NCBI GenBank assembly: GCA_047638395.1 | Contig: JBLIMV010000017.1 | Coordinates: 33,431 to 97,430, forward strand | From: Paracoccaceae bacterium | Lineage (GTDB): Bacteria; Pseudomonadota; Alphaproteobacteria; MPNO01; UBA830 | Direction of reading: 5' to 3' | DNA: 64,000 bases | Shown: positions 5,868-50,083 of the stretch, piece after piece | Layout: each line of letters opens with the position of its first letter | How positions within the stretch are numbered: position 1 is the first letter of the stretch | Position numbers and translations under genes: made by a program | Notes under the pieces: generated by a model | Seen by the model: the letters and a program-made list of their open reading frames with translations, nothing else | Databases searched by the model: none | What the model was told of the DNA's origin: nothing

Positions 5868-6791
5868 ATGCGGATCGCAATGATGGGCAGCGGCGGTATC
5901 GGTGGTTATTTCGGTGGCCGGATGGCGGCGGCCGGGACCGATGTGAGCTTTATCGCCCGGGGCCGGCACCTGGCGGCAATGCAGGAAGCCGGCCTGCGGC
6001 TCGACAGCCGGGATATGGGCGATGTCACCATCAAACCGGTCAGCGCCACCGACAACCCTGCAGAAATCGGTCCGGTCGACTACCTGATCATCGGTGTGAA
6101 ACTCTGGGATACCGAAGATGTCGGAAAATCGATCCTGCCGATGCTTGGCCCCGACACCACCATCCTGTCGCTACAGAACGGCGTCGACTGCGACGATATT
6201 CTGGCGCCCATCGTCGGCCGGGAGCGGCTGATCAGCGGCGTCGCCTTCATCGCAAGCTCAATCTCGGAACCGGGCGTCATTCGCCATATCGGCACGATGC
6301 AGCGCATCGTGATGGGCGAACCGGACGGCAGCATTTCCCCGCGCCTGACGGCCCTGCAAGACATGATGGTCCAGGGCGGAATCACCGCCGAGACCAGCGA
6401 CGATATCCAGCGCACGCTGTGGGAGAAGTTCGTGTTTCTCGTAGGGCTGAGTTCAACCACCACGTTGATGCGCACCACGCTCGGCCCGATCCGCGAGGCC
6501 CCCGAAAGCCGGGAATTCCTGTTCGGTGTGATGCGCGAAGCGACGGCTGTCGGACGGGCCATCGGCATCGACCTGCCGGAAGATTTCGCCGATACCCGTC
6601 TAATTTTTGCAGATGGCCTGCCGGTCGATATGACATCGTCGATGCACCACGATTTCGAGGCCGGCAATAAGCTGGAGCTATCCTGGCTGGCAGGAACCAT
6701 CGTTCGGCTGGGCCGCGAGGCCGGCATTTCAACGCCCGTATGCCAGACGGTCTATGCGGCGCTGCTGCCGAAGGCCGGCGGGGCGGCCTGA
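5868..6791 (+). CDS. 2-dehydropantoate 2-reductase family (PanE/ApbA-like) NAD(P)H oxidoreductase
   Basis: The N-terminal MRIAMMGSGGIGGYFGG Rossmann motif is typical of ketopantoate reductases. A GGGAG ribosome-binding site lies upstream. The start is 3 nt after the senB-like stop, so the two are translationally coupled. Confidence 0.7.
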   Translation: MRIAMMGSGGIGGYFGGRMAAAGTDVSFIARGRHLAAMQEAGLRLDSRDMGDVTIKPVSATDNPAEIGPVDYLIIGVKLWDTEDVGKSILPMLGPDTTILSLQNGVDCDDILAPIVGRERLISGVAFIASSISEPGVIRHIGTMQRIVMGEPDGSISPRLTALQDMMVQGGITAETSDDIQRTLWEKFVFLVGLSSTTTLMRTTLGPIREAPESREFLFGVMREATAVGRAIGIDLPEDFADTRLIFADGLPVDMTSSMHHDFEAGNKLELSWLAGTIVRLGREAGISTPVCQTVYAALLPKAGGAA

Positions 6792-9061
6792 CTAAACCCT
6801 GACCGTGATCGGCTCCAACCGGTCCGACTGTTCTTTTACCTCACCGACGATCATCGTCCGCGTATAGCCGAGTTCGATCAGCCTGGCGACACAGGCATCC
6901 GCGCGGTCGGCGGGCACGCTGGCAAGCAGGCCGCCCGCGGTCTGCGGATCGAAAATCAGCGGATATCGGGGATCTTTGCCGGCTTCTTCCAGATTGGCGA
7001 CCGCGCGGCGCAGGCGCACGTTCTGCGGCTGCAGCGATGAGACGATCCCAGCGCGCACGGTATCTTCGGCACCGTCCATCATCGGCACGGCATCAAGCAC
7101 AAGCTCGACATCGACCTCGGATGCCCGCACCATTTCCACCAGATGGCCGAGCAGGCCGAACCCGGTGATATCAGTCGCCGCCCGGCTGCCATATTCAACC
7201 AGGCACTGCGCACCGAGGCGGTTCGACATCACCATATGATCGAGCGCAGCGGCGATCCACCGGCCCTTGGCCTTGTGGCGCATGTCGGCCGCGAACAATG
7301 TGCCGGTCCCGATCGGCTTGGTGACAATCAGCTTGTCGCCGGGCTTAAGGCCGCCCTTGCGCATGATCTTGTCCCTGTCGATTAGCCCGTTGACCGAAAA
7401 ACCAAGGCTGAGCTCGGGGCCTTCGCTGGTATGGCCGCCGACAAGGCTGCAATTGGTATCGTTCAGGATCTCCATCGCGCCGGACATCATCTGGGTCAGC
7501 GTATCCTCGACCTTGGATTCGATGCCAAACGGCACCGTGGCGACAGCAAGCGCGGTCTGCGGATCGGCGCCCATGGCGAAGATATCGCCGAGGCTGTGAT
7601 TGGCCGCGATTTTGCCGAACACGTACGGATCATCGATCATCGAGCGGAAATAGTCGACCGTGTGCACCATCACTTTGCCCGGCGGCACTTCGACCACAGC
7701 GGCATCGTCCGGCTCGTGCAGGCCGATCAGCACATCGTCGCGCGGCGCGGGCGTCAGTGTATTGAGGGCCCGCGACAACACGCTGGCCCCAACCTTGGCG
7801 CCGCAGCCGCCGCAGCGCATGGCAATTGCCGAGATTTCCTTGACCACATCGGCACTCGCCAGCCCGGCGGGCAGATCGGTTTTTTCTTCCTCGTCCATGT
7901 CGGGGAGGTCGTTGAACTTGTCCATAAAGCGGCGGTCGATCCAGTCTTTCCAGCGCCACAACGCCTCGCCCTTGATGGACCAGCCACCGCGCGACGCGAC
8001 GGCGAATTTGTCGCCGGTCGAAATCAGTCCGAGGAAATTCTTTTGCGGCCGGAAGGGGCGCTGCGTCTGCCCCAGAAGCGCCCGGCGCAGGTTTCGTTCC
8101 AGCGGCTTACCCTGACGCACTGCGAACACGCCCGACTTGGGCCGCGGATGATTGACCATCGCGGCAACGTCACCCGCAGCATAAACGTCTGGATGAGACG
8201 TCGATTGCAACGTATCGCCGACCTTGATAAAGCCGCCGTCATCCACATCGAAACCGGCTTCGCTTGGCCAGGACGGCGCGCCCGCGGCGGTTACCCACAG
8301 GATTTCATCGGCGGCAATCTCTTCACCACCGCCCGTCTTCAACAGCCCCGGCATAATCTCGGTGACGGGCTGTCCGAGATGCAGGTTCACGCCGCGGCGC
8401 TGAAGCACTTCCATAAAGGTCCGGCGCGCCCGGGCGTTATGGGTCGGCAGGATCTCCGCCGTATTGCTGAACAAATGGAATTCAATGTTGTCCGCCGCAT
8501 TGCCAGCAGCTTCACGCAGTTCGCTCAGCCGGTGCTGAATTGCCAGCAGAATTTCCACGCCACCTGCCCCGGCACCGACGACGGCAATCCGCAGCGGACC
8601 TTCATGCGCCATGGCCCGGACACTCAGCGCTTCCCACCGGTCAAGAAAATTATTGATCGGTTTGACCGGAACCACATTGCCCGTCGCACCGGGCACACCC
8701 GATGTATTTGGGGTCGAACCCGTATTGATCGATACCAGTTCGAACGGCACGGGCGGCCGGTCATCACAGATCACGCGCCGTTCCCGCAGGTCGAGCCCCG
8801 TGACGGTCGAATGATAGAAGCGCGCATTGGCAAACCGTGCCAACGCACCGAGATCGATATGTGCTTCGTCATAAGTGTAATGACCGGCAACGTATCCAGG
8901 CAGCATCCCCGAATAGGGCGTGTGCGCATCACGGCAGATCAACGTGAGGCGAACACCGGGCACGGGTTTCATACCGAAACGTTTGAGCACCGCGACATGG
9001 CTGTGTCCGCCGCCAATCAGCACCAGGTCTTTGACAATCGGGGTATCGGATTTTTGCATAA
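6792..9061 (-). CDS. selD: bifunctional FAD-dependent pyridine nucleotide-disulfide oxidoreductase (NADH dehydrogenase-like) / selenide, water dikinase SelD
   Basis: The N-terminal VLIGGGHSHVAV dinucleotide-binding motif marks the oxidoreductase half. The C-terminal half begins MRCGGCGAKVGASVL, the SelD Cys-type glycine-rich active-site loop, and continues with AIR-synthase-related PurM-like folds. The start was placed at the internal ATG (MQKSDTPIVKDLVLIGGG), 4 nt after the permease stop. Confidence 0.8.
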
Positions 9062-21126: not shown

Positions 21127-21603
21127 AATCTTTTTCTGTCGCAATGTCGGCGCCCTTCGAAAAATGCACTCCACCACATGTGTTCCATAGACCGATCAGG
21201 ACCAGCCTCAGAACCTGTTCCACTGTTCTTGCCGCACCAAATCGGCGTGCGAAGATCGGCATATGACCTGCGGTGGGGTTATCAATGTACAGCGATACGC
21301 AATCCGGGGCTCTATTTCAATAGTTTGCCGTTTTGAATTCGCACCGGCATGATTCTGAAATAACCTCAAACGGCGCATAAATTGTGCCTTTTCCAGAACA
21401 GCTATAGTCAAACTGCACTTTGATAGGCACCTAGTAATTCCAACTAGCGAATTAATAGAATCTTCGATACAAATATAGATGTCATGTCGTCATAGGCGTG
21501 TAGGGCTGGGCGCGGCACTTCAGAACAAAATGATTGGATTTTCCGCGGTAGAACAATAAGTCTGCAGAAATGGTGCAGGGTAAGTAGTAAATTGGGGGGC
21601 AAG

Positions 21604-23190
21604 ATGCCAACGCACTGGTACGCAGACAGGCACTATTTGAGTATCCGGAAGACTGTTTTTGCGATCGCTCTGCTGGTCGCGGCAGGTTCTTTCTCTCAGC
21701 AAACACTGGCGTCAGAGACATCCGACAGATTGGTCGCCCGCGGCCTGATCCAGCTTAAAGCAGGTCAGTTCATCGCCGCCACGAAGTATTTCAATGGGGC
21801 CGTCCAGCTCGATTCGAAGGATCCGCGCGCGCTGTTTTATCTTGGCGTCGCGCTGAACCGGATCGGCCAGCATGGGGCCGCGCTGGAATCATTTCAGCGC
21901 ATGTGGGCGCTCAAAGTCACTAGTCGCCAACTCGGGCTTGAAGGCGGCTGGGCGGCGATTGCACAGGGCCGGACGGCACTGGCGATCACGCTGCTGGAAC
22001 CCTACGTGAAAGCAAACCCGAAAAACGCGAAGGCGCGCGAATTCCTAGGACGCGCCTATATCGGCGATGGCCGGCTGGATGATGCGGAGCGGGAACTAAA
22101 ACGCGCGATCGAGCTGGATGCAGCTCTAAAACCGACGGCGCTCTATTACCTTGGGAATATTGCCGCCCTGCGCAAAGACACAAAGGGCGTGGCAACGGCG
22201 CTGACTGGCATGCTGCAACAAAGCCCGGACAGCCGGACCAGCAATATCCTGCGCGATACGCTGCGTCGCGCAGCGACAGCGCCGCAACAGGAGCGGAAAT
22301 CCTGGTTCGCGGCACTCTCCTTGTCAGGTGGCGACAATTCCAATGTGATTGGCCTCGCGGACGAAGCCGTTCTTCCGGCCGACGTGTCCTCCCGATCTTC
22401 CAAATTTCTCCGCACCCAACTGGACATCGGCTATAATTTACGACTTAACGACATCAGTTCTCTGACAGGCGGCTACAGCTTTTCACACGAACGATACTCG
22501 GATATCGAAGGCTTCGATTCGATGTCCAACACGGTTTATCTCGACTACCGTCGCAAGTTAGCCGAGCGTGTCGAAGGCGGATTGCGCATATCCCGCAGCC
22601 TGTCGGCCACGGACGGCGAGACCAAAGTTCGGCGGACAACAATAACACCATCGGCGCTCTATCGCTGGAGCGAGACCGATGTGACCACACTGCGCTACAA
22701 CCTGTCATTCACGAGTTATGTTCCCGAGCCCGTTCGACCGGCGCTTAATCGCGACGTGAGAAATCATGTCTTTACCCTGTCGCACAGAACCATGGTGGAT
22801 GGCCCGATCCTGCCACTGGGGGTAAGCCTCGAGGTCGGACTGAGCCGGACCCTCAACAATGCGGAAGGTGCCGACTATGTGTATGACGGGCTTGGCGGCT
22901 TCATCTCGGCTTCCCGCAAATTTCCGCTCGAAATCCGCGGCGCGATCACCTTCAGCCACCAGCGCGACACCTATACCGAGCTGAACAGCCTGGCGGGCGC
23001 AGGCTTCGCCTTTAACCGCGAAGACCGGATCGACAGGCTGAACCTGTTTCTTGAAAGGCCGCTGACCGTGTTCGACGTCAAGAATGCGTCCGTCTTCCTG
23101 AACTGGCAGTACCTGAACAACAAATCGAATCTCAGCTTTTTCAATTACGAACAGACATCATTCAATTTCGGCATAAGCGCGCGGTTCTGA
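21604..23190 (+). CDS. outer-membrane protein: signal peptide + N-terminal TPR domain + C-terminal beta-barrel ending in ...FNFGISARF (Slam/DUF560-like architecture)
   Basis: A GGGGGG ribosome-binding site lies 7 nt before ATG 21604. The signal peptide is MPTHWYADRHYLSIRKTVFAIALLVAAGSFSQQTLA. TPR-like repeats span roughly residues 50-230. Alternating hydrophobic strands follow, ending in a C-terminal aromatic Phe, the classic OMP barrel signature. At about 529 aa the length matches Slam-type translocons. Confidence 0.5.
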   Translation: MPTHWYADRHYLSIRKTVFAIALLVAAGSFSQQTLASETSDRLVARGLIQLKAGQFIAATKYFNGAVQLDSKDPRALFYLGVALNRIGQHGAALESFQRMWALKVTSRQLGLEGGWAAIAQGRTALAITLLEPYVKANPKNAKAREFLGRAYIGDGRLDDAERELKRAIELDAALKPTALYYLGNIAALRKDTKGVATALTGMLQQSPDSRTSNILRDTLRRAATAPQQERKSWFAALSLSGGDNSNVIGLADEAVLPADVSSRSSKFLRTQLDIGYNLRLNDISSLTGGYSFSHERYSDIEGFDSMSNTVYLDYRRKLAERVEGGLRISRSLSATDGETKVRRTTITPSALYRWSETDVTTLRYNLSFTSYVPEPVRPALNRDVRNHVFTLSHRTMVDGPILPLGVSLEVGLSRTLNNAEGADYVYDGLGGFISASRKFPLEIRGAITFSHQRDTYTELNSLAGAGFAFNREDRIDRLNLFLERPLTVFDVKNASVFLNWQYLNNKSNLSFFNYEQTSFNFGISARF

Positions 23191-23221
23191 GCCGCTGCTG
23201 CCCACCGGAAGGAGAAACCAG

Positions 23222-25519
23222 ATGCGCAAGATTTTGTTCCTGTTCACGTTCTTCGCTGCCGCAGGCCTGTTTGGTCCGGCATCGGAAGAAGCCGCGGCGC
23301 AATGTACGCATCTTGGCGGTCAAGGCACCTGCCCGGTCGGTATTCCGAACGGATCGAGCAGCACCACTTTCAATGCGAATGGCACCATTAACTGGAGCAG
23401 TGGCGGTATTTCCGGTGCCTGCTGTGCTGCACCCAGCGGCATCGAGACCGGCGGGGGGTTGCTGAACCTGAATAATCAGCTCGGCGGCAGCGGACCGGGT
23501 ACCGGGAACCCTCCCGCCAACAATCCCAACGCAGATTCGCCCTTCAGAACCGACGGCGTGAACGTGGCAGGACCCGGCGAGATCCCCGTCATGGTGTATC
23601 CCGACGACTGCGGCGCAGGCGGCTGCACGCAAGGAGCAGCGGGTCAGATCTTCGGTGCCAATCCGAACAGCGGCTATCTCTGCGATTCAGGCGGACCGGG
23701 TTGCGGCAATGACCTGTGGACATCGGCACCCCAGCCCGGCTTCGGAAGCTGCGGCCCCGGCGGATGCGGCGGGGCGGCTCCGATCGCGCCGATAAATTTT
23801 GCGGAGATCCCTGGCACTGGGCCCTACAGCCAGAACAACACAACCGGCGAGGTCGATCCCTTCGGCGGGGGCTCGTCGTTTCAGGACCCGATCACGGGCG
23901 AAACGGAAAGCCTTTCGGATAATCCGGCCGAGTGGCCCAACCATGTCAGACACGCCGACGAGCTGAACACTGCTTATGCCAACGACGAGATTCATTACCC
24001 GTTCGACGACCCGGACTGGCGAAATAAATCGCTCGAAGAGCTCAAGGAAGATTTCAGGAACCTGCCGCCGCCGGGCCTGGACAACATATCAAGACCGTTG
24101 GAGCCTTATTCGACGGGCAATTCGGATGCAGCAGCGGCCGATAGCGGCGGTACGCCGTCGACCGGCAGCGCCCCGAAATTCTCAAACAAATCCGGCCGGT
24201 TCGGCATCGGCAACGACACCACGCTCGGCGGCGTGAACGGTCTGTCCGCGCGCTTTCAGGTCGCCAAGAATTTTGGCGTACAGGCAATTGTTAGTTTTAC
24301 CCGTGTCGATATCAACGATGAAAACCCGAACGCCGATCTGACCAACTATGTGAGCGCGTTCCTCGCGACCACCCAGCCGGGTACCCCGCCCGCGAACTTC
24401 GTATCCGTGCTGCCGGTGGTTACTCCGACGCCGAGTCCTGCGTCCAGGCCAGCAGACGAAGACACCACAGAAGCGCCCGAACCACGCTCGGAGAGCACGC
24501 CGCTGAGAACCCGCAGTTTTGATAGCCGTACCGGTTGGGATAACCGATCCTCGATCAGCCGCATCGAAACAGAAGGTCGGGAAACTGTTTATGAAGTTTA
24601 TTCCGAAGAAGCTGACCAGAATCGGTACGTCGAATTCAAAAGCCGGGAGGACGCGTTCGTTTTCTCTGACAGGCTGAATGACGCACCCGAAGGCAAGACC
24701 TTCGACCAGGTGCTGGGCGAACTTCCGGCAGAGCGCGCGCCGATTAATGTCGACCCTGTGAACACCAACCTGACCGATACACTCATCGAGAATGTGCCCG
24801 AGGGGTTTCAGGCACCCAAAGTGAATAATCTGAGGCTCGATGAGTTTCAGATAACGGATCCGCGGACCGGCCGTCGGATAGACGTCAAATCGGCGGAGCA
24901 GAGGGACGCAGTGCTCAACGCCATGAACAACGGCGCGACCCTGAAAGAGGCCGCGGAAATAGCGAAGAACGCTCCCGTGGTCACGCCGGACGGCCTCGCA
25001 TCGGCAACGACCAGCAGCACCCCAAGGTCAACACAGTCGACCCCTGCCCCGGCCGGCAGCGCGCCGACCTTTACCGACAACCGACCGGCAATCATCGTTG
25101 CACCGACGCGACCGGAAGGCACAAGTGTCGGCTCCATGAAAGGCGTGATACAGGGACAAGCATACGACATCGAAGTTATCAGGGCCGAAAACGGCAAGGT
25201 TTACGCGGTCGGCACCGGCGAAAACGCAAATCATGTTTTTGGCGAAGTAAAGGAAACCAGCAACAAACTGTTCGGCGACTGGCGGCGCGAAGGGCCGTGG
25301 ACCCCGCCGCCTTCGAAGACACAGACTGCGCCTGCGACGACGACTGCAACAGCGACCACCCCAACAGCGACATCGCAGCGCACACCGCCGCCACAGGCCG
25401 CCAATAACCGGGTCCGGTCGCAGATCGCAAATAGTGACCGCGATTATATGATGCAGCCGCAGTTCACGGACGGGTTTGAATCGGGCAACTTTCAGGCTTG
25501 GACAACGACCAACCCCTAG
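23222..25519 (+). CDS. large secreted low-complexity protein (Gly/Cys-rich N-terminal region, Pro/Thr-rich linkers); putative cargo of the upstream TPR-barrel protein
   Basis: A strong GGAAGGAG ribosome-binding site precedes the start. The signal peptide is MRKILFLFTFFAAAGLFGPASEEAAAQ and there is no canonical lipobox. About 14 Cys cluster in the first ~200 residues within G-rich sequence. PT-rich tracts occur (VVTPTPSPASRP, TAPATTTATATTPTAT). The gene begins 32 nt after the barrel gene stop. Confidence 0.6.
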   Translation: MRKILFLFTFFAAAGLFGPASEEAAAQCTHLGGQGTCPVGIPNGSSSTTFNANGTINWSSGGISGACCAAPSGIETGGGLLNLNNQLGGSGPGTGNPPANNPNADSPFRTDGVNVAGPGEIPVMVYPDDCGAGGCTQGAAGQIFGANPNSGYLCDSGGPGCGNDLWTSAPQPGFGSCGPGGCGGAAPIAPINFAEIPGTGPYSQNNTTGEVDPFGGGSSFQDPITGETESLSDNPAEWPNHVRHADELNTAYANDEIHYPFDDPDWRNKSLEELKEDFRNLPPPGLDNISRPLEPYSTGNSDAAAADSGGTPSTGSAPKFSNKSGRFGIGNDTTLGGVNGLSARFQVAKNFGVQAIVSFTRVDINDENPNADLTNYVSAFLATTQPGTPPANFVSVLPVVTPTPSPASRPADEDTTEAPEPRSESTPLRTRSFDSRTGWDNRSSISRIETEGRETVYEVYSEEADQNRYVEFKSREDAFVFSDRLNDAPEGKTFDQVLGELPAERAPINVDPVNTNLTDTLIENVPEGFQAPKVNNLRLDEFQITDPRTGRRIDVKSAEQRDAVLNAMNNGATLKEAAEIAKNAPVVTPDGLASATTSSTPRSTQSTPAPAGSAPTFTDNRPAIIVAPTRPEGTSVGSMKGVIQGQAYDIEVIRAENGKVYAVGTGENANHVFGEVKETSNKLFGDWRREGPWTPPPSKTQTAPATTTATATTPTATSQRTPPPQAANNRVRSQIANSDRDYMMQPQFTDGFESGNFQAWTTTNP

Positions 25520-49992: not shown

Positions 49993-50083
49993 CTGGCGGA
50001 GAGGGGGAGATTCGAACTCCCGAGACGCTTGCACGCCCAATAGTTTTCGAGACTACCGCATTCAACCACTCTGCCACCTCTCC
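49993..50083 (-). tRNA. tRNA-Ser (anticodon CGA), 91 nt with long variable arm and encoded CCA
   Basis: The reverse complement reads GGAGAGGTGGCAGAGTGGTTGAATGC...TCTCGAAAACTAT...GGGAGTTCGAATCTCCCCCTCTCCGCCA. Acceptor, D, anticodon (loop CTCGAAA) and T arms fold canonically. The long extra arm is typical of Ser. Confidence 0.85.

What the first reader, a model, noticed from the sequence alone, without database searches (positions are those of the whole stretch)
21604..25519. Slam-like TPR/beta-barrel outer-membrane protein paired with a 765-aa low-complexity secreted protein
The upstream gene encodes a signal peptide, roughly 180 aa of TPR repeats and a C-terminal amphipathic beta-strand region ending in the OMP signature ...SFNFGISARF. 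This is the architecture of Slam/DUF560 surface-protein translocons. Such translocons are characteristically encoded immediately upstream of their cargo. The next gene begins 32 nt downstream and encodes a signal-peptide-bearing, Gly/Cys/Pro/Thr-rich protein with no recognisable enzymatic motif and no lipobox. The locus sits on its own behind a roughly 430-bp AT-rich promoter region, divergent from gltB. This may be an uncharacterised two-gene surface-display or secretion module in a non-pathogen lineage.
Basis: partly seen in the sequence, partly recalled or inferred. Interest (0 to 1): 0.65.

Follow-up and report, generated by a model that had tools for sequence, protein, structure and literature searches.

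The report
Slam-like outer-membrane barrel with partner gene
A marine alphaproteobacterial genome carries a conserved two-gene unit: an outer-membrane barrel distantly related to the Slam/type 11 secretion pores, and next to it a long, mostly disordered exported protein that lacks the usual cargo domain, so it may be a new kind of cargo or instead a periplasmic tether.

Summary
Both genes are real and sit at the stated coordinates. ORF1 (21604-23190, 528 aa) has a signal peptide, about 188 aa of TPR helices and a confidently predicted 14-stranded barrel ending in ...GISARF. Its nearest solved barrels are the 14-stranded CymA and OmpG. By sequence its family sits between Pfam SlipAM (DUF560, the Slam/T11SS pore) and DUF2860. 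ORF1 itself misses the SlipAM threshold, but many family members match that model.

ORF2 (23222-25519, 765 aa) starts 31 nt downstream. It has a Sec signal and no lipobox, and more than half of it is predicted disordered. The pair is conserved in both directions in four different genomic contexts.

ORF2 has no TbpB-like 8-stranded barrel, which is the hallmark of known T11SS cargo. What stays constant among partners is a new C-terminal module of about 100-140 aa. The same module follows a porin domain in a clade whose barrel is only 32% identical to ORF1. About half of the ORF2 homologues carry LysM. Both facts also fit a periplasmic role for ORF2.

Verdict: the architecture and the linkage are supported, and the cargo role is plausible but unproven. 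I rate it a new variant of a known kind, of moderate interest.

The parts
21178..21603 (.). Intergenic region between divergent gltB and ORF1. It is relatively AT-rich and is presumed to hold the promoter.
   Evidence: GC is 0.48-0.50 here against 0.57-0.60 in the flanks. The consensus scan found no sigma-70-like site here, so the promoter is inferred only.
21604..23190 (+). ORF1, 528 aa: a TPR plus beta-barrel outer-membrane protein. It belongs to a divergent family between Pfam SlipAM/DUF560 and DUF2860.
21604..21711 (+). ORF1 Sec signal peptide (residues 1-36, predicted cleavage TLA|SE)
   Evidence: Read from the sequence. The homologue alignment starts being conserved just after this point.
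21715..22278 (+). ORF1 periplasmic TPR domain (residues 38-225, 11 helices)
22303..23187 (+). ORF1 14-stranded beta-barrel (residues 234-528), ending in Phe
23208..23215 (+). Ribosome-binding site of ORF2 (GAAGGAGA)
23222..25519 (+). ORF2, 765 aa: a Sec-exported partner protein that is mostly predicted disordered
23222..23302 (+). ORF2 signal peptide (residues 1-27, AAA|QC), with no standard lipobox
   Evidence: Read from the sequence. It is conserved in the homologues.
23303..23767 (+). Gly-rich N-terminal region holding all ten Cys as closely spaced pairs (residues 28-182)
   Evidence: C28, C130, C135, C154, C161, C177 and C182 are nearly invariant.
23819..24070 (+). Conserved 'PFGGG...WP...YPF' module (residues 200-283). 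It is duplicated in several homologues.
   Evidence: Alignment. AlphaFold2 pLDDT is 79-88.
24188..24361 (+). Conserved 'GRFGIG...LSARFQVAKNFGVQAIVSF...DLTNYVS' segment (residues 323-380). In homologues a LysM domain sits just before it. Its resemblance to a porin hairpin is from memory only.
   Evidence: Alignment. AlphaFold2 confidence is low here. The profile search found no porin match.
24488..24967 (+). Two small beta-alpha-alpha minidomains (residues 423-505 and 533-582)
   Evidence: AlphaFold2 pLDDT is 65-90. Alignment.
25103..25516 (+). C-terminal module (residues 628-765): a small beta domain with the invariant AVGTG..H.FGE.K...G.R.EGPW motif, a Pro/Thr linker, and the tail IANSDRD.M...FTDGFESG...W...
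   Evidence: It holds most of the invariant columns of the family. It is shared with the porin-type partners of L016 and L013 (BLASTP E 4e-6; alignment). It has no Pfam match.

Best explanation
ORF1 and ORF2 form a two-gene operon for a divergent Slam/type 11 secretion-like system. Both proteins cross the inner membrane through Sec. ORF1 inserts into the outer membrane as a 14-stranded barrel, with its TPR domain in the periplasm. ORF2 is largely unfolded, and its only cysteines form short loops. Its conserved C-terminal module is recognised by the TPR domain or the barrel of ORF1. ORF2 is then passed through the barrel, or held in it, so that at least part of it reaches the cell surface or the medium.

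Shown here: the domain architecture, the 14-strand prediction, the family-level sequence link to SlipAM/DUF2860, the conserved and reciprocal gene pairing, and the constant C-terminal module with mosaic N-terminal parts.

Inferred only: recognition of the module by ORF1, translocation itself, and the final location of ORF2.

For: 2. Homology. Of 95 family representatives, 28 match SlipAM (best E 2.4e-10) and 22 match DUF2860. Isolated barrels of P0021 and P0037 score 27.4 and 26.0 bits against SlipAM (threshold 22), and they align along most of that profile.

3. Operon signals. The gap is 31 nt, ORF2 has a good ribosome-binding site, and there is no terminator between the genes.

4. Pairing. 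An ORF2-type gene follows the barrel gene in the window and in L001, L003, L005, L011, L012, L017, L018, L019 and the P0092 contig. These loci cover four different flanking contexts. Every barrel homologue I inspected has an adjacent same-strand gene with no strong Pfam match. For those I translated (L006, L008, L010, L013, L016) I read a signal peptide from the sequence; for L009 and the P0040 contig I did not see one.

5. Cargo-like logic. The partners have mosaic N-terminal parts and a constant C-terminal module. This parallels the T11SS cargo layout of variable N-termini plus a shared C-terminal domain (PMC12282271) and the C-terminal specificity motif of Slam substrates (PMC9090332).

6. 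Compatibility with a narrow pore. In the ORF2 model 418 of 765 residues have pLDDT below 50, and all Cys are in pairs 1-9 residues apart. Slam1 translocates only unfolded substrate (PMC9090332).
Against: - ORF1 is below the SlipAM gathering score (14.7-16.9 against 22 bits).
- ORF2 has no TbpB-like 8-stranded barrel by Pfam or by the AlphaFold2 model, and no structural match at all.
- Twelve of the 25 ORF2 homologues carry LysM, which in Gram-negative bacteria usually binds peptidoglycan in the periplasm.
- In L013 and L016 the same C-terminal module follows a Porin_4 barrel and a Pro/Thr hinge. This is an OmpA-like layout that places the module in the periplasm.
- In a further clade the partners are long charged coiled coils with a different C-terminus.
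- There is no experimental data for any member.
Confidence: 0.42

Rival explanations
1. Periplasmic tether or scaffold. ORF2 stays in the periplasm. Its conserved C-terminal module or tail docks onto the periplasmic TPR domain of ORF1, which serves as the outer-membrane anchor. The rest of ORF2 consists of long Pro/Thr-rich linkers and, in many homologues, a LysM domain. It spans the periplasm and contacts peptidoglycan. The pair would then link the outer membrane to the cell wall or act as an envelope scaffold, and would not be a secretion system.
For: - LysM occurs in 12 of 25 ORF2 homologues (49 bits in L012).
- The porin-type partners in L013 and L016 carry the same C-terminal module after a Porin_4 barrel and a hinge. 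By the usual topology of outer-membrane barrels (established knowledge), that places the module in the periplasm.
- TPR domains typically bind extended terminal peptides (established knowledge of TPR-ligand complexes).
- In another clade the partners are coiled coils of roughly 250-300 aa, rich in Glu, Arg and Ala. They resemble periplasm-spanning helices such as TolA domain II; this comparison is from memory.
Against: - A simple anchor would not need a 14-stranded barrel whose most conserved residues lie in the extracellular loops.
- The only characterised relatives of the barrel are translocons (PMC9090332, PMC8406197).
- ORF2 of this window has no LysM.
- LysM can also bind chitin, which is abundant in the sea.
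Confidence: 0.3
2. Threaded surface anchor, a two-gene analogue of an inverse autotransporter. The N-terminal part of ORF2 (Cys loops, and LysM in homologues) stays in the periplasm. The chain crosses the outer membrane through or beside the ORF1 barrel, perhaps using the conserved GRFGIG...SF hairpin. The C-terminal half is displayed outside the cell.
For: - The domain order in the homologues is LysM, then a beta-strand segment, then linkers and small domains. This mirrors the LysM, barrel, passenger order of intimin and invasin (established knowledge).
- In L013 and L016 a complete porin domain lies upstream of the shared C-terminal module. Whether it corresponds to ORF2's short GRFGIG strand segment was not tested by alignment.
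Against: - AlphaFold2 closes the ORF1 barrel on its own with 14 strands.
- The hairpin segment is predicted with low confidence.
- No profile match to porins was found.
- Under this model the C-terminal module would be extracellular. That conflicts with the periplasmic topology implied by the porin-fused partners.
Confidence: 0.1
3. ORF1 is an exopolysaccharide export porin of the BcsC/PgaA/PelB kind, and ORF2 is unrelated to it.
Against: - Those barrels have 16 strands (established knowledge) and score lower than the 14-stranded CymA and OmpG.
- No glycosyltransferase or synthase genes flank the pair in any of the loci I examined.
- The conserved neighbour is always a gene for an exported protein.
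Confidence: 0.03
4. The two genes are merely neighbours with no functional link.
For: There is no direct evidence of interaction. The partners differ between clades.
Against: The pairing is reciprocal and is kept in four different flanking contexts, down to 32% barrel identity, with gaps of only about 10-40 nt in the ORF2-type and porin-type pairs.
Confidence: 0.05

Closest known systems
Slam / type 11 secretion system outer-membrane proteins (Pfam PF04575 SlipAM, formerly DUF560), e.g. Neisseria Slam1/Slam2 and Xenorhabdus NilB/HrpB
   Same: - Both have a signal peptide, a periplasmic TPR domain and a 14-stranded C-terminal barrel.
- Both are encoded next to a Sec-exported partner.
- The partners have variable N-terminal parts and a constant C-terminal part.
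- Part of this family matches the SlipAM model (PMC5449769, PMC12282271).
   Different: - ORF1 is below the SlipAM threshold and matches DUF2860 better.
- The partner has no lipobox, no TbpB-like 8-stranded barrel, and no TonB or TonB-dependent receptor neighbours.
- The partner is two to three times longer than typical cargo, and in relatives it carries LysM or a porin domain.
- The organisms are free-living marine uncultured bacteria.
Marine 'cluster 3' T11SS of Rhodobacteraceae/Roseobacteraceae (Grossman et al. 2025, PMC12282271)
   Same: Both are marine alphaproteobacterial T11SS-like outer-membrane proteins that mostly lack canonical cargo next door.
   Different: Cluster 3 co-occurs with DUF1194, thymidylate synthase and glyoxalase genes. 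None of these flank this pair. The neighbour here is the ORF2 family, which that paper does not describe.
DUF2860 (PF11059), an uncharacterised outer-membrane barrel family
   Same: ORF1 passes its gathering score (26.2-28 bits against 22.9) over profile positions 137-291 of 294.
   Different: Only the C-terminal half of the barrel matches. The only three papers in the searched library that mention DUF2860 are reverse-vaccinology and database papers and give no function. That typical DUF2860 proteins lack a TPR domain is my recollection and was not checked here.
Synthase-dependent exopolysaccharide exporters BcsC, PgaA and PelB
   Same: A TPR domain is fused to an outer-membrane barrel. These are the only solved two-domain analogues.
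   Different: Those have 16-stranded barrels, much longer TPR arrays, and always sit in synthase operons. None of this applies here.
OmpA-like and inverse-autotransporter layouts (barrel plus hinge plus periplasmic domain; LysM plus barrel plus passenger)
   Same: The porin-type partners (L013, L016) have a barrel, a Pro/Thr hinge and a C-terminal module. The ORF2 homologues have LysM ahead of a beta-strand segment.
   Different: There is no OmpA_C, intimin or invasin domain. ORF2 of this window has neither LysM nor a complete barrel.

Membership tests
Slam / T11SS outer-membrane protein (PF04575 SlipAM) | N-terminal periplasmic TPR domain | tested here: met
   TPR_16 E 2e-16 and other TPR models. 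Eleven helices span residues 38-225 at pLDDT about 90.
Slam / T11SS outer-membrane protein (PF04575 SlipAM) | C-terminal 14-stranded beta-barrel | tested here: met
Slam / T11SS outer-membrane protein (PF04575 SlipAM) | Sequence match to the SlipAM/DUF560 model at the curated threshold | tested here: not met
   ORF1 scores 14.7 bits as a whole and 16.9 bits as the barrel alone, against a threshold of 22. Relatives P0021 and P0037 do pass (27.4 and 26.0 bits), and 28 of 95 family representatives match at E <= 1e-3. The family is therefore an outlying relative, and this protein is not a clear member.
Slam / T11SS system | Adjacent cargo gene whose product has a C-terminal 8-stranded (TbpB-like) beta-barrel | tested here: not met
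   No TbpBBD or any other Pfam hit was found for ORF2 or for its isolated C-terminal module. The AlphaFold2 model shows only a 5-stranded minidomain at residues 633-690. Foldseek found nothing. One caveat: the tail was modelled with low confidence, so a split small barrel is not excluded.
Slam / T11SS system | Cargo is a lipoprotein (SPII lipobox) or a soluble Sec substrate | tested here: met
   ORF2 has a Sec-type signal peptide with an AAA|QC site and no lipobox. Non-lipidated cargo is known for T11SS (PMC8406197).
Slam / T11SS system | Surface exposure or secretion of the cargo depends on the outer-membrane protein | not testable with these tools
   This needs co-expression and protease-shaving or secretion assays.
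DUF2860 (PF11059) | Sequence match at the curated threshold | tested here: met
   26.2 bits for the whole protein and 28.0 bits for the barrel alone, against a threshold of 22.9. Only profile positions 137-291 of 294 are matched.
Exopolysaccharide exporters (BcsC, PgaA, PelB) | 16-stranded barrel and a location in a polysaccharide synthase operon | tested here: not met
Two-partner secretion (TpsB/TpsA) | Omp85-type transporter with POTRA domains, and a TPS domain in the exoprotein | tested here: not met
   No POTRA, ShlB or TPS (haemagglutination activity) domain was hit in either protein.
LysM peptidoglycan-binding proteins | LysM domain (PF01476) | tested here: not met
   ORF2 has no LysM. 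Twelve of its 25 homologues do (L012 partner 49 bits).

The most novel reading that the evidence does not exclude
The pair defines a new cargo-recognition class within the Slam/T11SS superfamily. A previously undescribed C-terminal module of about 100-140 aa (a small beta domain plus an 'IA.SD...F.DGFESG...W' tail) replaces the canonical TbpB-like barrel as the element that couples mosaic envelope proteins to a TPR-barrel outer-membrane protein. Those mosaic proteins include forms with Cys loops, LysM or a fused porin. Alternatively, the same pair is an unrecognised link between the outer membrane and peptidoglycan in marine Alphaproteobacteria. Either reading would extend what T11SS-like barrels are thought to do beyond host-associated nutrient capture.
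Probability: 0.35. Interest if true: 0.65.

Novelty: new variant of a known kind. Interest (0 to 1): 0.5.

Why it matters
Type 11 secretion has been tested only in seven animal-associated systems (PMC12282271). Most environmental clusters have no known cargo, and marine members often lack the canonical cargo domain. This locus offers a compact two-gene candidate from free-living marine bacteria, with a clearly delimited conserved C-terminal module that could be tested as a recognition signal.

If ORF2 is exported, the cargo rules of T11SS become broader, and a new surface-display tag may follow. If ORF2 instead stays in the periplasm, that would show Slam-like barrels can serve as envelope anchors. 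Either result bears on how far function can be transferred by homology in this superfamily. Current public names for these proteins ('Flp pilus assembly protein TadD', 'TPR repeat protein', 'LysM repeat protein', 'hypothetical protein') do not reflect any of this.

Tried and rejected
- The AFDB50 fold library was not available, so no comparison with predicted Slam structures was possible.
- The full-length ORF1 profile against the PDB was swamped by TPR proteins.
- ORF2 had no hits in Pfam, NCBIfam or PHROGs. It had no significant Foldseek match (best E 0.1). The family profile against the PDB found only the LysM of the homologues.
- The isolated C-terminal module, with or without its linker, gave only an insignificant PilP hit (E 0.08-0.2).
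- I looked for similarity between ORF2 and the coiled-coil partners of the clade with 32% barrel identity and found none.
- The barrel-only alignment was too divergent for the genome pattern scan. A narrower alignment found six loci.
- The last homologue search, with the C-terminal-module profile, returned mainly C-terminal fragments of the same family and no new architecture.
- tblastn of the barrel against 72,556 plasmids found nothing. There is no paralogue in the window.
- I rejected the exopolysaccharide-exporter idea on strand number and gene context.
- From memory, the GRFGIG...SRFQV segment resembles the first hairpin of alphaproteobacterial porins. No search supported this, so I list it only as a lead.

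Full report
**1. The observation**

Both reading frames exist as described. ORF1 runs from 21604 (ATG) to 23190 and encodes 528 aa. ORF2 runs from 23222 to 25519 and encodes 765 aa. They are 31 nt apart. ORF2 has a GGAAGGAGAA ribosome-binding site, and no terminator-like site lies between the genes.

The gene upstream, on the other strand, is gltB, with all four glutamate synthase domains. The genes downstream encode a UbiD-family decarboxylase, a luciferase-like oxidoreductase and a molybdenum hydroxylase subunit. The 426-bp spacer before ORF1 has GC 0.48-0.50, against 0.57-0.60 on either side. The consensus scan found no promoter-like site in it.

ORF2 is identical to a hypothetical protein of a Paracoccaceae MAG (P0072). 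Close relatives of the pair lie in marine MAGs labelled Rhodospirillaceae or Paracoccaceae, one of them from a TARA Oceans sample.

**2. ORF1**

Pfam finds strong TPR matches in residues 40-210. In the C-terminal part it finds DUF2860 at 26.2 bits (threshold 22.9) and SlipAM, the Slam/DUF560 model, at 14.7 bits (threshold 22).

I ran AlphaFold2 on a 43-sequence alignment. The model has mean pLDDT 83. It shows a signal-peptide helix, eleven TPR helices (residues 38-225) and fourteen strands (residues 234-527), with short periplasmic turns and longer outer loops.

That condition is not met.

**3. Family placement of ORF1**

The 5.8-billion-protein search found about 49 full-length homologues. 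Where they are named at all, they are called 'TadD' or 'TPR repeat protein'.

A barrel-only profile searched against 1.84 billion cluster representatives gave 231 hits at E <= 1e-30, 1,543 at E <= 1e-10 and 3,585 at E <= 1e-3. Most of the top 150 are about 500 aa with the barrel at the C-terminus; the shorter ones look like fragments.

Of 95 such representatives, 28 match SlipAM (best E 2.4e-10) and 22 match DUF2860 (best E 2.4e-11). Among ten isolated barrels, two pass the SlipAM threshold over nearly the whole model and two pass DUF2860.

The family therefore lies between these two Pfam families. It is an outlying relative of the Slam/T11SS pores, not a clear member.

Mapping the invariant columns onto the strand order puts most of them in loops L1 (G243-D260), L4 (R383, D384), L5 (G422, D424), L6 (Y457-D474, NSLAGAGFAF.R.D) and L7 (S508, N509). 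By strand parity these are extracellular loops. Such conservation is unusual for an outer-membrane protein and suggests loops that fold into the pore.

**4. ORF2**

ORF2 has a Sec signal peptide (AAA|QC) and no standard lipobox. Proline, threonine and asparagine are about twice the local background. Cysteine is not enriched overall, but all ten Cys lie in residues 28-182 as pairs 1-9 residues apart. No Pfam, NCBIfam or PHROG family matches.

The AlphaFold2 model, built on 24 sequences, has mean pLDDT 53, and 418 residues score below 50. The folded pieces are small:
- residues 27-66
- residues 210-283
- residues 423-505
- residues 533-582
- residues 633-690

Foldseek finds nothing significant.

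The alignment of 25 homologues shows a mosaic:
- Cys loops
- a 'PFGGG...WP...YPF' module, present once or twice
- LysM in 12 of 25 homologues, but not in this window
- a conserved 'GRFGIG...SF' segment
- two beta-alpha-alpha minidomains
- 'TPDGLASA...NRPAIIV' units, present one to three times
- an always-terminal module that holds most of the invariant columns (AVGTG..H.FGE.K...G.R.EGPW, then a linker, then IANSDRD.M...FTDGFESG...W)

**5. Linkage of the two genes**

An ORF2-type gene follows the barrel gene at a distance of about 10-40 nt in the window and in L001, L003, L005, L011, L012, L017, L018, L019 and the P0092 contig. The flanks differ between four contexts:
- gltB and UbiD
- an AMP-binding enzyme and an amidohydrolase
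- mutS with a GerE-like gene, and malic enzyme
- a Ribonuc_L-PSP gene, and GFA with Phage_GPD

Starting from ORF2 homologues also led back to a TPR-barrel gene every time.

In clades with about 32% barrel identity the neighbour changes:
- In L013 and L016 the partner has a signal peptide, a Cys motif, a Porin_4 domain (36 and 61 bits), a Pro/Thr hinge and the same C-terminal module (BLASTP E 4e-6 to ORF2 residues 633-761).
- In L006, L008 and L015 it is a protein of about 600 aa with a long charged coiled coil. In L006 and L008 a 264-aa TPR protein follows, and the partner shows no similarity to ORF2.
- In L009, L010 and the P0040 contig there are other proteins with no strong Pfam match. The L010 product has a signal peptide. 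The L009 product as called does not start with one. No DNA was available for the P0040 contig.

A profile of the C-terminal module found only this family, mostly as fragments.

**6. Interpretation**

The characterised relatives are translocons. Slam1 alone moves unfolded TbpB across a bilayer and recognises a C-terminal specificity motif (PMC9090332). T11SS cargo has variable N-termini and a shared C-terminal 8-stranded barrel, and is usually encoded next to the pore (PMC5449769, PMC8406197, PMC12282271).

This locus repeats that logic in four ways: the pore architecture, the operon with a Sec substrate, the constant C-terminal element, and a partner that is unfolded and has only short disulfide loops. 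I therefore rank a T11SS-like translocon-cargo pair first, at a confidence of about 0.42.

It fails two membership tests: the SlipAM threshold for ORF1 and the canonical cargo barrel for ORF2.

Two observations favour a rival. LysM normally works on peptidoglycan in the periplasm. The porin-fused partners also place the shared module on the periplasmic side. There it could simply dock on the TPR domain, making the pair an envelope tether or scaffold (about 0.3). A threaded layout like an inverse autotransporter (about 0.1), an exopolysaccharide exporter (about 0.03) and mere neighbourhood (about 0.05) are less likely.

**7. Novelty and score**

T11SS-like barrels in environmental Proteobacteria are known. 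Marine members that lack canonical cargo have also been noted, in cluster 3, which co-occurs with DUF1194 (PMC12282271). The ORF2 family and its C-terminal module do not appear in the T11SS papers I read, and they match no Pfam, NCBIfam or PHROG model.

I rate the locus a new variant of a known kind, with interest 0.5. It is compact, clearly delimited and directly testable, but its function rests on analogy. The decisive steps are multimer modelling of ORF1 with the C-terminal module, and a surface-exposure assay with and without ORF1.

Noticed in passing
L011:5986-7572: The ORF1 orthologue in this Rhodospirillaceae MAG (72% identity, same gltB/UbiD synteny) is split into two reading frames, 5986-6822 and 6964-7572. 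The ORF2 homologue (1042 aa) is intact. This is either a pseudogene or an assembly frameshift.
   Followed up: no
L017:6933-9828 and L019:6308-7063: In one context the pair is followed by genes with Phage_GPD, Phage_base_V and Beta_helix domains. These resemble VgrG or a phage baseplate spike. They are absent from the window.
   Followed up: no
L003:6685-7806 and L018:1959-3137: A gene of 373-392 aa lies on the same strand just upstream of the pair, between mutS and the barrel gene. The L003 product has a weak GerE (LuxR-type HTH) hit; the L018 product has no Pfam hit on record. It could be a dedicated regulator. The window has no equivalent.
   Followed up: no
window 24980-25100 (ORF2 residues 587-626) and the homologues in alignment A2: A low-complexity unit, 'TPDGLASA..S.TPAPAGSAPTFT.NRPAIIV', is present once in ORF2 and two or three times in tandem in homologues such as P0073 and P0086. 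The 'PFGGG...YPF' module is likewise duplicated in P0083, P0084, P0087-P0089 and P0096. The partner family evolves by gaining and losing modules.
   Followed up: partly
L006:11272-12066 and L008:5148-5939: In the clade with coiled-coil partners, a third gene encodes a 264-aa TPR-only protein that overlaps the end of the partner gene. In L006 adenylate/guanylate cyclase-domain genes lie close by; in L008 a sensor kinase and response-regulator pair and one such cyclase-domain gene follow. This suggests a three-gene version of the system.
   Followed up: no
contig of P0040 (no DNA held): Here the barrel gene is overlapped at its 3' end by a 259-aa gene with a Flagellin_C hit. It is preceded, 7 nt upstream, by a 325-aa gene with no Pfam match.
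   Followed up: no
window 49994-50083 (-): tRNA-Ser (anticodon CGA) is the only tRNA in the window. It is unrelated to the finding.
   Followed up: no
ORF2 homologues P0092-P0094, P0096 and the partners of L013 and L016: In several partner types the predicted signal-peptidase site is A-x-A followed directly by Cys (AHA|C, ANA|C). A Cys is therefore conserved at or near the mature N-terminus without a canonical lipobox. Its significance is unknown.
   Followed up: no
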